From: a virus
Lineage: Duplodnaviria; Heunggongvirae; Uroviricota; Caudoviricetes
Virus record (IMG/VR): IMGVR_UViG_2713896780_000020
Strand: one strand, 5' to 3'
Length of the DNA stretch: 5,933 bases
Numbering within the stretch: position 1 is the first letter of the stretch; every line of letters begins with the position of its first letter. The position numbers were made by a program, and so were the translations under genes. Shown piece by piece: positions 1-4,465 of the stretch. A model generated the notes under the pieces. That model did no database searches, had not been told where the DNA came from, and worked only from the letters and a program-made list of their open reading frames with translations.

Positions 1-743
1 ATCAGGCTGTCGTAATGCGCGTCATTGTGGATGTGCTGGCGCAGCCAGGCTTCATCGTGGCGATGTTCGATAATGGTATTGGCGATATGGTGACTGGTAC
101 GCATACCGTTAGTGGCCATCACCGACAGTACGGCATCGGCCATCAGGGAAACGCCTACGTGTGGATCGCAAAACACCTGGCTGATACCTGCCAGTTGTCC
201 CTGGACCTTTGCCACATCCAGCGTGGTTCCGCCTAAATCCACAATCAGCAGGGATTCAAACGGACTCATGTCAGCCAGTGCTTTAAAACCAGCCGGAATG
301 GATTCAGGCATAACCCGTACGTTACGGATAGTGAATGCTTTTCCGTTCTGGTACGCCACCGGGCGCATGACGTTTGCTTTTTTGCGGTTGATGTTGGCCA
401 TGTCCGGCTGTGCGTTTGTGTCGAAATATTCGCTCAGTGGCAGGGTGACAACCACATCCACTTCCTGTGGTGTGATGCCTGATTTGACCAGCGCGTGATG
501 AATGGCAATGACATTCACATCGCTGTACTGGTATTGCGTGTCGGTCGTCTGGACAAAGCGATCGCTGACCGGATCAAAACCATAGCGCACGCCATCAAGC
601 ATGTAGTTTGCGGGCTGCGTGCCACCGAACGGCGCAGACCATTCCGACTTGAAGCTGTTCGGGCTGATGGCGTTGCGGCGTTCGCCGTTCTCAGTCCATG
701 CCAGCTTGATGTTGGTGGAGCCGTCGTCGATACAAATTTTCAT
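1..743 (-). CDS. ParM/StbA-family actin-like ATPase (plasmid-segregation type), N-terminal 247 codons; 3' end lies beyond the window
   Basis: ATG at 743-741 (minus) with an AAGGAAAAG Shine-Dalgarno about 8 nt upstream. I checked every in-frame codon down to position 3 and found no stop. Translation begins MKICIDDGSTNIKLAWTENGERRNAISPNSFKSEW... and continues ...YQYSDVNVIAIHHALVKSGITPQEVDVVVTLPLSEYFD..., matching from memory the hallmark N-terminus of R1 ParM (IDDGSTNIKL, ISPNSFK, YSDVNV.A.HHAL). Not in the ORF track, presumably because it is truncated at the window edge. Confidence 0.8.
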   Translation of the reverse strand, partial: MKICIDDGSTNIKLAWTENGERRNAISPNSFKSEWSAPFGGTQPANYMLDGVRYGFDPVSDRFVQTTDTQYQYSDVNVIAIHHALVKSGITPQEVDVVVTLPLSEYFDTNAQPDMANINRKKANVMRPVAYQNGKAFTIRNVRVMPESIPAGFKALADMSPFESLLIVDLGGTTLDVAKVQGQLAGISQVFCDPHVGVSLMADAVLSVMATNGMRTSHHIANTIIEHRHDEAWLRQHIHNDAHYDSL

Positions 744-777
744 GTCGCTTTTCCTTATGTTGATTAATTAATCGTTT

Positions 778-797
778 ACGGGATTCTGAAATCCCGT
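778..797. repeat. 20-bp perfect palindrome ACGGGATT-ctga-AATCCCGT (copy 1), within a ~36-bp repeat unit 775-810 with a T-rich tail on the plus strand
   Basis: Read directly: 8-bp arms are exact reverse complements with a 4-nt spacer; followed by tttttgcctgttttgtg. Lies in the 76-bp spacer between the gpA stop and the ParM-like start. Confidence 0.6.
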
Positions 798-819
798 TTT
801 TGCCTGTTTTGTGTGCGCT

Positions 820-3660
820 TCATATATCGCGGCGCGTTTTTTGCTCATTTACGGGATTTGTGAATCCCGTTTCTGTCTGTTTTTTGTTTCCACTGGTCAG
901 GCCACCCCGCAGCAGGTCTGCTTTGCGGCGGGCACGTTCAGTGGTTTCACTGATTCTCTGTGCGTGCTCTGCGTCGCGGATGGCGCGCAGCATGTCAGAA
1001 AGCACGGTAACGGGTGTTTTCATGGTGTTCTGGTCCTGCTGAAGTGTGGATGCCAGACGTGCGGCGGCTTCGGGGTCTGATGCCCCCAGTTGTTCCAGAT
1101 AGCTGGCGACCGGGTTATGGCGGATCTCTGTGCTGCTTACGCCGTGATTACGGCTCAGGCGCTGCCAGAGCTGCGTGATTCGGCTGTCCGGGCGGGTATC
1201 CGGTTTGCGTACAATTTCAAATCCCTGCGGTGCAATGATGCTGCCGTCAACGTACAGGCTGCCGCCCCGTAACAGGTGCTGCATCTGCTGTTCACCGATA
1301 TGCAGGCCGAGAGATTCGGCAGATTCCCGCCATTCTTTAGCGAGTAATTCGTGGTTATCAGGCAAAGGCCGCTGCTGTTTGCGGCTCTGTGTCCAGCTCT
1401 GCATTTCATCACTGCTGTTTTTTGCCTGTTTGTCACGAAGCGAACGCATCAGCGCCCGGCGTTCGTGCCGTTTCAGTGAGTGCATCCATTCGTTCACTTC
1501 AACGCCATCAGGGAGCTGCGGCCACGGTGCTGGCCGTTCTTCCGGCTGTTCTGTCCCGTTGTTGTTCGTTTCCTGTACACGGGGACAGTTATTGCCACGA
1601 GTCCAAGGGGCGGCAGGGCCGCCCTGAAGGTCAAAACCATTTTCGCGGGCGCTGTCTTCCGCTTCCGGTTTACGTCTTACCAGCTTCCAGTTATCCGGGT
1701 GCGTGCACACGCGGGAAGACTCCCCGATGAGCGGCGACCAGATCCCGTAAATCTGTACACTCTGCTCGCCGTAATCGTTCAGCTCATCTGCGAGGTCGTA
1801 GGCGGTGCGAATCAGGTAGTCTTTGCGTGGAACAAGTACGCCACCCTGTTTCTCAATGTAGGTGGCAAAACATCCGGCATCAGCGGCAGCGAGTACCGCG
1901 TCCATTGCGTCATCCTTCAGCCGTTGCGGGCCTTCCGGGTTGCGTGCCATCTGGCTGGCAAGGCGGCGCAGTTCACGCCACACCTGACGGGAGGGGATAC
2001 CAAAGAACTGGAACTGGCGGACCCGGTGAAGGCGCGCCCAGCCGATGGCGCGTTCCACGCTCTCGGCCATTGATTTTCCGGTTTCGTGGTCAACGCGTGG
2101 CTTGCCCGTTTTCGGGTCGATGCCATCCACGGCGCGGCTGTCCAGGTTCTTTCCGATGTAGGTGGCGATGTAGCTGGTTGGTGTGCCTTTTGAGCCGTCG
2201 ACATACTCCACCTTAAAGCGCGGAGTAATATCATTGCCCAGCTCGTGGCGGTCTTCCTGAATGGCAATATCGCGGGTGATGGTCACGATGCTGTCGATTT
2301 CTTCTGGATGAGCAAAGACCATCATGTGCCAGTGCACGGTGCCGTCATGGTGAGGCTCCACCGTGCGGATGCCATACCAGCGCAGGCCGTCGCGGTTCAG
2401 TTTTTTGCGGACCGCCGCAAAAAACGTGTTAACCAGGTAATCGCTGGAGTCGCGCATGGTGGCCCCGTTCCATTTGGGGTTCGGATGACCGTTCTCCGTT
2501 GTTGCGTGGTATTTTGACGGGCAGGTGACAGTCAGAAACACCGCTCTGTCGCCACGGGCTTCGGCCAGAAGTTCCAGTCCCTTCATGGTGGCCATCATTT
2601 CTGCCTTACGGTGAACCGGGTTACTTACTCCCGCGTAATACACCGTCTCGAGATCAATCGTGAACCCGTCTTCATTTTCCAGCATGAAACTTTTCAGGAA
2701 ATCGCGTGTTTTCTCGCGCTGTGCGCGAAACTCGCTTAACGCGTCCTGGCTCAGATAGGGTGATGTTTTTCTGGAAACCAGACAGGCGGCGCGGAGTTGT
2801 TCTTCTCTCCACTCGCAACGTAACAGCCACAGTTTGCGTTTCCACCATTCCGCACAGGTCAGGCGAAGGATTGCGCCCGGCAGCAGCTCCGTGTCCGGTT
2901 CGTTCCTCCGGTCTTTGTCTGTTGTCAGTGCGTCATAATGTGGAGGCATGGCGTGCAGGTGTAACGCCATGCGGGCCAGCATCTGATACGCCTTCAGCGT
3001 TACATCCATGGTCAGTTCGCCATCAGTCGCGCCAAAGCCATCGCAGAGTTTTTCGAAGGTGCTGCTGAACATCGCCGCCGTCATGGTGGCCAGCGTCTGT
3101 ATCTGGTGTTTGTTGAGCTGCGGCAGGTAAAGCAAATCGTCCAGGCGTTCGCGTCCGGCAAGAGAGCGATAACCCGGTGTCAGCCAGCGGCTGTCGGTGC
3201 GGTCCAGACGTTCGAATATTTTGCGCAGGGTTCCGCGTGCATAGCGTTCCGCCTGCCAGCTCTTTTTGCCTTTCTGACGATCGGCTTCCTGCTTCTTGCG
3301 CAGGAAAGAGAGGTGGCGGCTCAGAGGTTCTCGCAGATAAACGGGAAGCGCCTTCAGTGTGGCAAAGGCACGGGCTACCGGGTCTTGTTCTGTTGCCCGG
3401 CGCTTACTGATGATGCTCTGTGCCAGCTTTTCACGCTGTCCGGCTTCCTCAAGGGATGCCATGAGTTTTTTACCCATGGCGGATTGTGCGAAAAAGGCTT
3501 CTTCCTTTGCTTCCTGTTCTTTCTGTGCCCTTTTGTCCGCCTCAAGGTAGTAACGGATGGCGCGTTGCAGGTCGGTTTCAGTTTCCTGCCTGTGCTCCGT
3601 AAATCTGGCTGGATCAATGGCTGGCCGTGGTTCATTCCAGCTCCATGCAAACTCACTCAT
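820..3660 (-). CDS. A: Replication initiation endonuclease, phage P2 gpA family (HUH rolling-circle initiator), 946 aa
   Basis: Long minus ORF with TGA stop at 822-820. I place the start at ATG 3660-3658, which forms an ATGA overlap with the stop of the upstream ORF, rather than the GTG at 3687 used by the ORF track. Translation contains LTVTCPSKYH, GIRTVEPHHDGTVHWHMMVF (HUH metal-binding motif), YIATYIGKN (paired catalytic tyrosines), FATYIEKQGG and RVRQFQFFGIP, all recalled as conserved blocks of P2 gpA. Longer than P2 A (761 aa as I recall). Confidence 0.9.
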   Translation of the reverse strand: MSEFAWSWNEPRPAIDPARFTEHRQETETDLQRAIRYYLEADKRAQKEQEAKEEAFFAQSAMGKKLMASLEEAGQREKLAQSIISKRRATEQDPVARAFATLKALPVYLREPLSRHLSFLRKKQEADRQKGKKSWQAERYARGTLRKIFERLDRTDSRWLTPGYRSLAGRERLDDLLYLPQLNKHQIQTLATMTAAMFSSTFEKLCDGFGATDGELTMDVTLKAYQMLARMALHLHAMPPHYDALTTDKDRRNEPDTELLPGAILRLTCAEWWKRKLWLLRCEWREEQLRAACLVSRKTSPYLSQDALSEFRAQREKTRDFLKSFMLENEDGFTIDLETVYYAGVSNPVHRKAEMMATMKGLELLAEARGDRAVFLTVTCPSKYHATTENGHPNPKWNGATMRDSSDYLVNTFFAAVRKKLNRDGLRWYGIRTVEPHHDGTVHWHMMVFAHPEEIDSIVTITRDIAIQEDRHELGNDITPRFKVEYVDGSKGTPTSYIATYIGKNLDSRAVDGIDPKTGKPRVDHETGKSMAESVERAIGWARLHRVRQFQFFGIPSRQVWRELRRLASQMARNPEGPQRLKDDAMDAVLAAADAGCFATYIEKQGGVLVPRKDYLIRTAYDLADELNDYGEQSVQIYGIWSPLIGESSRVCTHPDNWKLVRRKPEAEDSARENGFDLQGGPAAPWTRGNNCPRVQETNNNGTEQPEERPAPWPQLPDGVEVNEWMHSLKRHERRALMRSLRDKQAKNSSDEMQSWTQSRKQQRPLPDNHELLAKEWRESAESLGLHIGEQQMQHLLRGGSLYVDGSIIAPQGFEIVRKPDTRPDSRITQLWQRLSRNHGVSSTEIRHNPVASYLEQLGASDPEAAARLASTLQQDQNTMKTPVTVLSDMLRAIRDAEHAQRISETTERARRKADLLRGGLTSGNKKQTETGFTNPVNEQKTRRDI
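851..870. repeat. 20-bp perfect palindrome ACGGGATT-tgtg-AATCCCGT (copy 2), within a ~39-bp repeat unit 848-886 with a T-rich tail on the plus strand
   Basis: Same 8-bp arms as copy 1 with a different 4-nt spacer and similar flanks (ttt before, tttctgtctgttttttg after). Overlaps the last codons of the gpA-like CDS. Confidence 0.6.
2158..2172 (-). other. Paired catalytic tyrosine codons (Y-I-A-T-Y) of the gpA-like initiator
   Basis: Plus 2158-2160 gta and 2170-2172 gta both give TAC (Tyr) on the minus strand, spaced Y-x3-Y as in rolling-circle initiators of the phiX174 A / P2 A type. Confidence 0.75.
2326..2334 (-). other. HUH motif codons (His-Trp-His) of the gpA-like initiator
   Basis: Plus-strand gtgccagtg reverse-complements to CAC TGG CAC (H-W-H), residues 452-454 of the ORF-track protein, in the context VEPHHDGTVHWHMMVF. 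Confidence 0.8.
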
Positions 3661-4046
3661 GGCTGGTATCCCGTCACGCGCTGCCACTCCTGCGAGAAGA
3701 GGGTGGAAAGGCGGTTAAATTCAGCGGTGTATTCACTCAGCGAGGCACACCCGCCAGCAGTGCGATGCGCCAGCATTGCCGCAAATACGGAGGCCGGGGA
3801 GTCGTAATAAGCCAGTAGTGATTCGCCGTGTGGTGTCAGGCAGTGCAACGCCAGCCCGTGTGGTGTGAAGTCCACGCGGTAGCAGTCGTCTACTGTGAAA
3901 TAAAGGGTGTCTGCATTCTCTGGTTTTGTGGTGCGTGCTCTGTTGTCACGACCACGGATGTAGAGATCAAATAATCCCTGAAGAACGGGAGCCAGACGGG
4001 TGTCCTGTGTGCGCACCCATCTTGTGAAGTCATGAGCGTCAATCAT
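3657..4046 (-). CDS. Hypothetical early protein, 129 aa, translationally coupled to gpA
   Basis: ATG at 4046-4044 (MIDAHDFTRWVRTQ...), stop TGA at 3659-3657 overlapping the gpA ATG. The ORF track extends this frame upstream through the 50-N block to 4235 (192 aa); the stretch between the gap and 4046 uses rarer codons (cgg, ggg, agg, tcg), so I favour the shorter gene but cannot exclude the longer one. Confidence 0.5.
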   Translation of the reverse strand: MIDAHDFTRWVRTQDTRLAPVLQGLFDLYIRGRDNRARTTKPENADTLYFTVDDCYRVDFTPHGLALHCLTPHGESLLAYYDSPASVFAAMLAHRTAGGCASLSEYTAEFNRLSTLFSQEWQRVTGYQP

Positions 4047-4115
4047 GCTGCAATTCTCTTTACTACAGATGTGCGAAGGCCTCCCGCCGCAAGGTGCAGG
4101 AAAGGCCCGGAACAG

Positions 4116-4165
4116 NNNNNNNNNNNNNNNNNNNNNNNNNNNNNNNNNNNNNNNNNNNNNNNNNN
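4116..4165. other. Block of 50 N (masked or unknown bases)
   Basis: Read directly from the sequence. Confidence 0.95.
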
Positions 4166-4235
4166 GTCTGCGGTTGATTTCAGTCTGGATGTGACGACGC
4201 TCCGCGATAGCGCGGTGTGGTTTGCGGTTTGCCAT
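4166..4235 (-). CDS. 5' end of a small early ORF (MANRKPHRAIAERRHIQTEINRR...) running into the masked block; 3' end unknown
   Basis: ATG at 4235-4233 with AAGGGG about 9 nt upstream; the first 23 codons use common enterobacterial codons (CGC, CGT, AAC, ATC, CAG, GAA). Continuation is hidden by N 4116-4165. Confidence 0.35.
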
Positions 4236-4390
4236 GGTGTGGCCCCTTGTGTAGTAAGTTGTGAAAACTCACCATCCAGAGCTGCGAAACTGTGGGTGGC
4301 GAGACGTACGAGGTTCGCAGTACCGGCTACACAAGAACCCGGCCCGACCGAAGTCGGCCCCGTACGCCCCGCCATAATTCTGACGCGAAA

Positions 4391-4440
4391 NNNNNNNNNN
4401 NNNNNNNNNNNNNNNNNNNNNNNNNNNNNNNNNNNNNNNN
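4391..4440. other. Block of 50 N (masked or unknown bases)
   Basis: Read directly from the sequence. Confidence 0.95.
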
Positions 4441-4465
4441 TTTTGTGTGTGCATGTTCTGGTTTC

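What the first reader, a model, noticed from the sequence alone, without database searches (positions are those of the whole stretch)
1..743. ParM/StbA actin-like ATPase gene at the variable-cargo position downstream of phage replication gene A
In P2-type phages the locus just downstream of gene A (tin/old in P2 itself) is a recognised insertion point for accessory and anti-phage cargo. Here that position holds a gene whose N-terminal 247 residues look like ParM, the actin-like filament-forming ATPase of plasmid partition systems. I do not recall a ParM-type ATPase as a described component of P2-like phages or of a characterised hotspot defence system. It could be a partition module giving the element plasmid-like maintenance, or an ATPase repurposed in a new cargo system. 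The rest of the gene and any partner (a ParR-like adaptor or an effector) lie left of the window.
Basis: partly seen in the sequence, partly recalled or inferred. Interest (0 to 1): 0.7.

Follow-up and report, generated by a model that had tools for sequence, protein, structure and literature searches.

The report
Known ParM partition module in P88-like phages
The gene is a genuine ParM actin-like partition ATPase with its ParR partner, but it is a fixed, already annotated and already published feature of the P88-like branch of P2-family prophages (about a quarter of E. coli genomes), not new variable cargo; only its role in a phage that integrates remains untested.

Summary
Observation confirmed. 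Window 743->1 (minus strand) encodes the first 247 residues of a 319-aa ParM (Pfam StbA_N E=3.6e-82; end-to-end match to R1 ParM, 46.7% identity, ATP-binding motifs intact). The window is 100% identical to an E. coli O145 prophage of the P88 type (Xuanwuvirus, P2 family). Left of the window lies a 103-aa ParR/StbB adaptor (PF10784, E=1.6e-24). Two 43-nt repeats, each with an 8-bp-arm palindrome found nowhere else in the phage, sit just upstream of parM and are a candidate centromere.

parM-parR is not variable cargo. parM is complete in 80/80 sampled viral contigs (one has an internal stop), and parR follows it in 76/76 that extend far enough. The module is tied to this gene A lineage and occurs in 1371 of 5426 complete E. 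coli genomes. parM is under strong purifying selection (dN/dS about 0.05). The variable hotspot starts after parR (32 sequence types in 68 loci).

It is not undescribed: GenBank annotates it, Rousset et al. 2022 report a putative partition system in about a fourth of P2-like phages at this locus, and Pfeifer et al. 2021 discuss P88's partition genes. There is no defence-family hit. Copies are almost always integrated (0/5426 intact attP). The function is therefore probably transient segregation or positioning of extrachromosomal phage circles, and this is untested.

The parts
1..743 (-). 5' part of parM (codons 1-247 of 319). The gene continues left of the window; the full gene is L001 11784-12743 (-).
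   Evidence: Translation. Pfam StbA_N 3.6e-82 and ParM_C 1.1e-37. Full protein 6.9e-82 / 9.9e-69. R1 ParM 1mwk E=2.3e-92 with ATP-binding motifs conserved. dN/dS 0.04-0.06 against relatives.
752..756 (-). Shine-Dalgarno-like AAGGA about 8 nt before the parM ATG.
   Evidence: Read directly from the sequence. The block is nearly invariant in 8 relatives.
772..814 (.). Proximal 43-nt repeat in the A-parM intergenic region, containing the palindrome ACGGGATT-N4-AATCCCGT (778-797). Candidate ParR-binding site (parC-like).
   Evidence: the repeat finder D1/I1. The motif occurs only twice in the 34-kb phage genome and in the 25-kb locus, and 0/100 shuffles reach 2. The half-site is found nowhere else. 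It is present in all relatives, but single mismatches are tolerated and there are no compensatory changes.
845..887 (.). Distal copy of the 43-nt repeat (81% identical, 73 nt away), lying inside the last 22 codons of gene A. Palindrome at 851-870.
   Evidence: The stem is imperfect (T7->C) in 31 of 78 viral contigs, so its conservation as a palindrome is loose.
820..3660 (-). Replication gene A (946 aa; the ORF extends to a GTG at 3687), upstream of parM. No terminator is predicted between them on this strand.
   Evidence: Phage_GPA 1.5e-130. RefSeq annotation 'replication endonuclease'. 31% identical to P2 gpA. No minus-strand terminator or sigma-70 consensus promoter in 600-1100.

Best explanation
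SHOWN:
- The window's left end is the start of parM, the first gene of a two-gene R1-type (type II, ParMRC-like) partition module, parM-parR.
- This module is a fixed, lineage-specific part of P88-like (Xuanwuvirus) P2-family temperate phages.
- It sits between replication gene A and the variable gpA-gpQ hotspot.
- ParM has an intact actin-fold ATPase.
- ParR keeps the N-terminal beta-strand segment and the C-terminal tail that it shares with plasmid ParRs.
- parM is under strong purifying selection.
- The element lives integrated in the chromosome.

INFERRED:
- parM-parR is read through from gene A as part of the early (replication) operon. It would then be made after infection or induction, not in the quiescent lysogen.
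- ParR dimers bind the two palindrome-bearing 43-nt repeats just upstream of parM.
- ParM filaments capped by ParR-DNA complexes push sister circular phage genomes apart.
- This would act while the genome is extrachromosomal: rolling-circle monomer circles during lytic growth, before integration, or after excision. The effect would be to improve distribution, replication or inheritance of those circles. Precedents are SrpMRC for excised SXT/R391 ICEs and AlpAC for the induced CGP3 prophage.
- Which of these phases matters is not resolved.
For: Identity of the proteins: ParM; ParR PF10784 1.6e-24, conserved N-terminal strand and NIRALFPE tail shared with the D6 and IncK ParR. Functional constraint: dN/dS 0.04-0.06, 17-26 synonymous against 3-4 nonsynonymous changes; intact ORF in 79/80 viral contigs. 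Fixed module. Candidate cis site. It is not the replication origin, whose P2 nick-site homologue lies at about 1575-1612. Operon placement: same strand, 76-nt gap, no promoter or terminator consensus. Integrated lifestyle. Precedents: SrpMRC stabilises excised ICE circles (PMC4489591); AlpAC is early-induced and needed for efficient prophage replication (PMC4446434).
Against: No experiment exists for this module. There are only two repeat units, unlike the ten iterons of R1 parC (recalled from my own knowledge of R1, not checked here) or the iteron run upstream of D6 stbA. The distal palindrome is imperfect in about 40% of copies and no compensatory changes are seen, so the centromere assignment is weak. 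Co-transcription with gene A rests only on consensus scans. About three quarters of P2-like phages do without such a module (PMC9122126), so any benefit is not essential to the P2 life cycle. A cell committed to lysis gains nothing from segregation as such.
Confidence: 0.6

Rival explanations
1. Plasmid-prophage lifestyle: P88-like phages are (also) maintained in lysogens as low-copy plasmids, and ParMRC is their partition system. This is the suggestion made by Rousset 2022 and Pfeifer 2021.
For: Published suggestions. One 34,461-bp circular PLSDB record (pZ1323PEC0009-2, L003) is a complete P88-like genome closed at attP. The phage also carries a hok/gef family gene, another R1-type stability function.
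Against: 1532 of 1534 places in complete E. coli genomes are chromosomal. 0 of 5426 genomes have an intact attP junction for this integrase type, while 440 have the two halves apart. An integrase is present and the prophage is bounded by pdxB and flk. The only replication function seen is the rolling-circle gene A. The start of the single circular record coincides exactly with the att breakpoint, as expected for excised circles or an assembly-graph artefact. P88 was obtained by mitomycin C induction from the chromosome (PMC5285337).
Confidence: 0.12
2. Hotspot cargo with an anti-phage or anti-plasmid role. Either the ParM ATPase has been repurposed as part of a defence system, or ParR/parC causes incompatibility or exclusion of competing elements.
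For: The location is inside the gpA-gpQ interval, which is a documented defence hotspot (PMC9122126). The genes just downstream are variable.
Against: There is no PADLOC family hit for ParM, ParR or any window gene. The ParM/ParR pair is canonical with all partition features. It is constant while its neighbours vary, the opposite of hotspot cargo. No effector is constantly associated with it. The nearest plasmid ParMs are only about 52% identical, so cross-reaction with plasmid centromeres is unlikely.
Confidence: 0.06
3. The two palindromes are not a centromere. They would be RNA-level or transcriptional elements: hairpins in the A-parM mRNA, or terminators for antisense transcription entering from the convergent portal/terminase side. 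ParR's real binding site would then lie elsewhere.
For: Each hairpin is followed by a T-rich tail on the + strand and scores as terminator-like there. Both fold at about -11 kcal/mol on the sense strand, z = -3.2 and -3.6. The two commonest proximal variants (A1->G, C3'->T) remain wobble-paired in sense RNA.
Against: The common distal variant T7->C breaks pairing on the sense strand, so there is no consistent strand signal and no compensatory double changes. The + strand there is antisense to three consecutive genes, about 3 kb from the portal gene. There is no Rfam match. The position directly upstream of parM is where type II centromeres normally lie.
Confidence: 0.2
4. Decaying relic of a past plasmid-phage recombination, with no present function.
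For: Most P2-like phages lack it. No phenotype has been reported.
Against: dN/dS is 0.04-0.06. The ORF is intact in 79/80 viral contigs. All ATPase motifs are retained. The module is >=95% conserved across Escherichia, Citrobacter and Salmonella hosts yet only about 47-53% identical to any plasmid ParM, so it is a long-standing separate lineage.
Confidence: 0.03

Closest known systems
ParMRC (parA/stb) type II partition system of plasmid R1 and related IncF/IncK/IncI plasmids
   Same: The gene order parM then parR is the same. ParM aligns end to end with R1 ParM (E=2.3e-92, 46.7% identity) with identical phosphate-1, catalytic E148, phosphate-2 and adenosine motifs. ParR belongs to the same Pfam family (PF10784) and shares the C-terminal N-I-x-x-L-F-P tail. 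The repeated DNA lies directly upstream of parM.
   Different: It is carried by an integrating P2-family phage, not a plasmid. It lies directly behind rolling-circle replication gene A with no recognisable promoter of its own. The candidate centromere has only two long (43-nt) palindrome-bearing repeats 73 nt apart, one of them inside coding sequence, instead of about ten short iterons flanking a promoter. ParM identity to any plasmid copy is no more than about 53%.
StbA/StbB of plasmid-prophage D6 (P1-like)
   Same: It is the nearest phage-borne relative outside the P88 group: ParM 47.8% identical and a StbB-type partner downstream. The D6 annotators already noted similarity to 'phage P88 StbA'.
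   Different: D6 is a 91-kb true plasmid prophage. Its upstream region carries several TCTCA iterons at about 11-bp spacing.
SrpMRC of SXT/R391 integrative conjugative elements (PMC4489591)
   Same: It is a ParM-type partition system on an element whose resting state is integrated, and it has been shown to stabilise the transient excised circle. It is expressed together with mobility functions rather than constitutively.
   Different: SrpM is only distantly related to R1 ParM and SrpR has no ParR homology. The element is an ICE, not a phage. Activity was shown experimentally for SrpMRC and not for the P88 module.
AlpAC/alpS of Corynebacterium glutamicum prophage CGP3 (PMC4446434)
   Same: It is a prophage-encoded actin-like protein plus a DNA-binding adaptor, with binding repeats upstream of the operon. 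It is induced early and needed for efficient replication of the excised phage DNA.
   Different: It belongs to a different actin-like family and host phylum. It has 24 alpS repeats. CGP3 is a cryptic prophage.

Membership tests
Type II (ParMRC) partition system | Actin-fold ATPase of the ParM/StbA family, full length | tested here: met
   PF06406 6.9e-82 plus PF21523 9.9e-69 on the 319-aa protein. R1 ParM 1mwk residues 2-318 aligned, E=2.3e-92.
Type II (ParMRC) partition system | Nucleotide-binding and hydrolysis motifs intact (phosphate 1 DDGSTNIK, E148, phosphate 2 DLGGTT, adenosine GGGAE) | tested here: met
   All are identical to R1 ParM in the alignment.
Type II (ParMRC) partition system | Small ParR adaptor gene immediately downstream of parM | tested here: met
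   A 103-aa ORF lies 4 nt after parM. PF10784 Plasmid_stab_B scores 1.6e-24. It is present in 76/76 viral contigs with enough flank.
Type II (ParMRC) partition system | ParR C-terminal tail that docks onto ParM | not testable with these tools
   The tail motif NIRALFPE is conserved in all copies and resembles the IncK ParR NIKNLFPDDD and the D6 StbB tail. Binding itself was not tested.
Type II (ParMRC) partition system | cis-acting centromere (parC) of iterated ParR-binding repeats next to parM | tested here: inconclusive
   There are two 43-nt repeats with 8-N4-8 palindromes, unique in the phage genome. There are only two units, no short iterons, an imperfect distal copy in about 40% of loci, and no covariation.
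Type II (ParMRC) partition system | Stabilises an unstable replicon; ParM forms dynamic filaments | not testable with these tools
   This needs a plasmid-stability assay and microscopy or biochemistry.
Variable cargo / defence system of the P2 gpA-gpQ hotspot | Presence varies among otherwise closely related phages | tested here: not met
   parM is present in 80/80 loci, parR in 76/76, and gene A is upstream in 77/78. The parR-to-portal interval, by contrast, falls into 32 clusters among 68 loci. The junction count of 1279-1371 genomes is close to the gene A allele count of 1320.
Variable cargo / defence system of the P2 gpA-gpQ hotspot | Similarity to a known or candidate defence protein family | tested here: not met
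   There are no PADLOC-DB hits at E<=0.01 for ParM or any other window ORF. ParR, which lies outside the window, was not scanned against PADLOC.
Phage-plasmid (plasmid prophage) | Lysogens carry the element as an extrachromosomal replicon | tested here: not met
   1532/1534 places are chromosomal. 0/5426 genomes have an intact attP. There is one circular 34-kb PLSDB record of uncertain meaning.
Phage-plasmid (plasmid prophage) | Plasmid-type vegetative replicon | not tested
   Only the P2-type rolling-circle initiator gene A was identified. Pfeifer et al. flagged 'plasmid-like replication genes' in P88, but I did not examine which genes they meant.

The most novel reading that the evidence does not exclude
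The module may be a phage 'mini-cytoskeleton' rather than a plasmid-maintenance device. On this reading it is co-expressed with gene A and uses an R1-type actin spindle to separate or position rolling-circle monomer genomes. That would act during lytic growth or in the window between infection and integration, and would measurably raise burst size or lysogenisation frequency. It would be the first cytoskeletal function shown for a small temperate coliphage, and it is present in about a quarter of E. coli strains.
Probability: 0.3. Interest if true: 0.5.

Novelty: already known. Interest (0 to 1): 0.2.

Why it matters
As a discovery it matters little. The gene is annotated as ParM in more than a thousand RefSeq genomes and in reference phage records, and two papers have already pointed to this partition module in P2-like phages and in P88.

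What remains open, and is modestly interesting, is why an integrating rolling-circle phage lineage found in about 25% of E. coli genomes keeps an R1-type actin segregation machine under strong purifying selection. Answering that could extend two known ideas to a very common coliphage. One is active partition of transiently excised elements, shown for SXT/R391 ICEs. The other is actin-assisted phage replication, shown for CGP3. The practical value of this check is to delimit the hotspot correctly: in this lineage the variable or defence cargo begins after parR, not directly after gene A.

Tried and rejected
- **Defence-system reading.** The PADLOC scan of ParM and the other window ORFs gave nothing.
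- **Repeats as the replication origin.** Rejected. The P2 nick-site homologue lies at about window 1575-1612, some 750 nt from the end of gene A.
- **Known RNA family for the hairpins.** Rfam gave no match there. The only Rfam hit in the window is an unrelated C4 RNA.
- **Covariation test on the palindromes.** The relatives are 92-100% identical. Only single, non-compensated changes were found, with conflicting strand preference, so the test is uninformative.
- **Short iterons like R1 or D6.** None were found.
- **Own sigma-70 promoter for parM.** The consensus scan was negative. That is not proof of absence.
- **Solved-structure homologue for ParR.** None by sequence.
- **NCBIfam.** No model passes its cut-off for ParM or ParR.
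- **Species-level scan for distant chromosomal relatives.** It returned only 3 near-identical loci, because the method finds close relatives only.
- **Literature.** The first ParM search returned mostly false hits on names such as 'Parma', and 'P88' plus 'StbA' found nothing.
- **Strain check.** Looking up the strain of the 34-kb circular record in the E. coli genome collection failed because the record is not held there. I could not check whether its chromosome also carries an integrated copy.

Full report
**1. The observation.** All sizeable genes in the window are on the minus strand. From the ATG at 743-741 an open frame runs to the left edge, 247 codons. It matches Pfam StbA_N (ParM N-terminal domain) over its whole length at E=3.6e-82. 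It also matches the first 88 positions of the ParM C-terminal domain at E=1.1e-37, cut by the window edge, and PHROG 691 'partition protein' at E=1.4e-68. Immediately upstream on the same strand, 76 nt away, is replication gene A (820-3660; Phage_GPA E=1.5e-130).

**2. Where the window comes from.** Window 1-1100 is 100% identical to the chromosome of E. coli O145 RM8988 and three sister strains. It is 95-99% identical to more than 1300 other complete E. coli genomes. In total 1371 of 5426 genomes match, 1279 of them over at least 80% of the query, and 1532 of the 1534 places are chromosomal. Fourteen phage records match at 95.5-97.7%. They include Escherichia phage P88 and other members of genus Xuanwuvirus (Peduoviridae, the P2 family) and Citrobacter phage phiSM. 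The prophage in the identical genome lies between pdxB and flk and has an integrase, a C-type repressor, cox, and the full P2-type head, tail and lysis set.

**3. The rest of the module.** In that genome (L001) parM is 319 aa. It carries both Pfam ParM domains at full length (6.9e-82, 9.9e-69). It aligns residue 2-316 to residue 2-318 of R1 ParM (PDB 1mwk, E=2.3e-92) at 46.7% identity. D6, D7, G8, S9, T10, N11, K13, E148, D170-T175 and the GGGAE adenosine motif are all conserved, so the ATPase looks intact.

Four nucleotides after parM starts a 103-aa gene that matches Pfam Plasmid_stab_B (StbB/ParR) at E=1.6e-24. Its N-terminal segment TRRISFYLKP and its C-terminal tail NIRALFPE are conserved in all P88-like copies. 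That includes a copy from E. albertii that has diverged through the middle. The tail resembles those of the ParR proteins of an IncK plasmid (NIKNLFPDDD) and of phage D6.

**4. A candidate centromere.** Directly upstream of parM are two 43-nt direct repeats, 81% identical and 73 nt apart (window 772-814 and 845-887). Each contains the palindrome ACGGGATT-N4-AATCCCGT. With up to 3 mismatches allowed, the palindrome occurs exactly twice in a complete 34-kb phage genome and twice in the 25-kb locus, both times here, and 0 of 100 shuffles reach two hits. The 8-nt half-site occurs nowhere else. The proximal copy fills the A-parM intergenic region. The distal copy lies in the last 22 codons of gene A.

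These repeats are not the replication origin. The P2 nick site lies 427 nt before the P2 gene A stop. It maps by protein and DNA alignment to window about 1575-1612, where GCCGCcCCTtGGAcTCgTGgCAATAACTGT matches the P2 ori sequence.

The support for a ParR site is position and uniqueness only. There are just two units and no short iterons, whereas phage D6 has a run of TCTCA iterons upstream of its stbA. Among 78 viral contigs the stems tolerate single changes. In the proximal copy the common variants are A1->G and C3'->T. In the distal copy T7->C is present in 31 of 78. There are no compensatory double changes and no consistent strand preference. Both hairpins also score as terminator-like on the opposite (+) strand and fold at about -11 kcal/mol on the sense strand. 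I treat 'parC' as a candidate, with an RNA or terminator role as a live rival.

**5. Fixed module or variable cargo?** A scan of IMG/VR found 233 viral contigs encoding a relative. The best 80 are all at least 98% identical in ParM. In them:
- parM is full length in 80/80, with an intact ORF in 79/80 (L071 has an internal stop);
- parR follows directly in 76/76 with enough flank;
- gene A precedes it in 77/78;
- the interval from parR to the portal gene ranges from 1.0 to 4.2 kb and falls into 32 sequence clusters among 68 loci.

Consistently, the ClpX-type zinc-finger gene and the 112-aa gene that follow parR in the window's genome are found in P88 but not in six other relatives. In complete E. 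coli genomes this gene A allele is present at at least 80% coverage in 1320 genomes and the A-parM junction in 1279. parM shows 17-26 synonymous against 3-4 nonsynonymous differences from relatives, giving dN/dS of 0.04-0.06. parR is looser at 0.24-0.58, on few sites.

So parM-parR is a conserved, selected, lineage-defining block that forms one border of the hotspot. It is not cargo within the hotspot. It is also an old separate lineage. Within the P88 group ParM is at least 95% identical. The nearest phage outside the group (the plasmid-prophage D6) is 47.8% identical, and the nearest of more than 5000 plasmid ParMs about 53%.

**6. Is it maintained as a plasmid?** The data say integration is the rule.
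- There are 1532 chromosomal places against 2 on plasmids.
- A 700-nt probe spanning the attP junction, built from a circular record that has the same integrase protein as the window's prophage, found no genome among 5426 with the junction intact. In 440 genomes the two halves lie apart.
- PLSDB holds one 34,461-bp circular 'plasmid' (pZ1323PEC0009-2) that is a whole P88-like genome. Its record start coincides exactly with the att breakpoint. That is what excised circles or an assembly-graph artefact would give, and I could not examine that strain's chromosome.
- The other 'plasmid' hits are prophages inside very large records. One is a sopE-carrying SopE-phi-like prophage embedded among chromosomal genes in an IncHI2 record.
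- P88 itself was obtained by mitomycin C induction of a lysogen (PMC5285337).

**7. What is already known.** RefSeq/PGAP names the gene 'plasmid segregation protein ParM' and its neighbour 'plasmid partitioning/stability family protein' throughout. The P88, 520873, P884B11 and phiSM records say the same. The phage D6 record notes similarity to 'phage P88 StbA protein'.

Rousset et al. 2022 (PMC9122126) analysed exactly this gpA-gpQ locus in 18,150 E. coli loci. [quoted passage not shown] Pfeifer et al. 2021 (PMC7969092) list P88 among candidate phage-plasmids. [quoted passage not shown] Magaziner et al. 2019 (PMC6456863) list the phiSM gene as a 'fitness' factor. I found no experimental study of the module.

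**8. Most likely mechanism.**
- *Shown:* a canonical ParM-ParR pair, intact and under selection, on an integrating phage, directly behind gene A.
- *Inferred:* the pair is read through from gene A in the early operon. This rests on the same strand, the 76-nt gap, and the absence of a consensus promoter or minus-strand terminator. The pair would then be made after infection or induction rather than in the repressed lysogen.
- *Inferred:* ParR binds the two palindromic repeats, and ParM filaments push apart circular phage genomes while they are extrachromosomal.

Two experimentally studied precedents fit. SrpMRC stabilises the transient excised form of SXT/R391 ICEs (PMC4489591). AlpAC of prophage CGP3 is early-induced, and cells lacking it reach about half the circular phage DNA copy number (PMC4446434). 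I cannot tell whether the benefit falls in lytic replication, in the pre-integration window, or after spontaneous excision. I put about 0.6 on this overall picture, about 0.12 on a true plasmid-prophage state, and about 0.06 on a defence or exclusion role. There is no PADLOC hit and no constant effector. I put about 0.03 on a functionless relic. Separately, I put about 0.2 on the palindromes being RNA or terminator elements rather than the centromere.

**9. Verdict.** This is a real ParM with a ParR partner and a plausible cis site. It is also an ordinary, annotated and published feature of a very common prophage lineage, and it is not variable or defence cargo. Novelty: already known. Interest is low at 0.2. 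The residual value lies in the untested question of what an actin-type partition machine does for an integrating P2-family phage.

Noticed in passing
window 4292-4379 (-): Rfam C4 antisense RNA (RF01695), 83.2 bits, E=6.8e-16, full model length. It lies at the 5' end of, and just upstream of, the 231-nt gene whose P88 homologue is annotated 'derepression protein'. This resembles a P1/P7 immI-like c4-ant arrangement inside a P2-type early region.
   Followed up: no
window 4116-4165 and 4391-4441: Two runs of about 50 N (masked sequence). They produce X-runs in several ORF translations, including the 192-aa ORF at 3657-4235. The unmasked sequence is available in L001.
   Followed up: partly
window ~1575-1612 (-), inside gene A: Clear homologue of the P2 ori nick-site sequence (GCCGC.CCT.GGA.TC.TG.CAATAACTGT), placing the probable origin about 750 nt before the gene A stop. 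Gene A here is 946 aa against 761 in P2, with an extra C-terminal region after the ori.
   Followed up: partly
L001 10737-11404 (-) and 9646-10170 (-), left of the window: The genes after parR are a 110-aa protein with a ClpX-type C4 zinc finger (PF06689, 2.9e-16), a 112-aa protein with no family hit, and a 174-aa protein with no family hit next to the portal gene. These are the truly variable hotspot cargo: absent from most relatives, with 32 interval types in 68 loci. Their function is unknown and they have no Pfam hit to a defence family.
   Followed up: partly
L013 13682-16598 (other end of the same prophage): The prophage also carries a Hok/Gef family toxin gene (a second R1-style stability function), a Com regulator plus a DNA methyltransferase, a 356-aa PIN-domain protein before ogr, and an invertible tail-fibre segment with a recombinase.
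   Followed up: no
L003 (NZ_CP148288.1, whole record): A 34,461-bp circular 'plasmid' from a cat E. coli isolate is a complete P88-like phage genome closed at attP. The record start coincides exactly with the att breakpoint. It could be excised circles, an assembly artefact, or a rare episomal state.
   Followed up: partly
L004 (NZ_CP110658.1 99744-140700): A sopE-carrying SopE-phi-like prophage with the same A-parM-parR block sits among chromosomal housekeeping genes (ffh, rpsP, pheA, tyrA) inside a 272-kb Salmonella IncHI2 'plasmid' record, next to IS26. This is either IS26-mediated capture of a chromosome segment or a misassembly.
   Followed up: no
L009 (NZ_JBQPOM010000071.1): A contig labelled Vagococcus sp. 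(a Gram-positive genus) carries this enterobacterial prophage block at 97% ParM identity. It is most likely contamination or mislabelling of the assembly.
   Followed up: no
L001 11439-11462, between parR and the zinc-finger gene: A perfect 10-bp-stem, GC-rich hairpin (CATCAGGGCG-N4-CGCCCTGATG) with a T-rich tail on the + strand. It may be a terminator for transcription converging from the portal/terminase side, and it marks the end of the conserved parMR block.
   Followed up: no
L007 6965-7280 (E. albertii): The ParR of the E. albertii copy has diverged strongly through its middle and C-terminal half, with only the first 153 nt alignable at 78%. ParM is still 98.7% identical and the proximal palindrome stems are unchanged. 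This suggests recombination or fast evolution confined to the ParR linker.
   Followed up: partly
L071 5001-5960; L080 3765-5000: One of the 80 viral contigs has an internal stop in parM (L071). Another (L080) has a divergent gene A C-terminus (63% identity) ending about 600 nt before parM, so it has a different junction.
   Followed up: no
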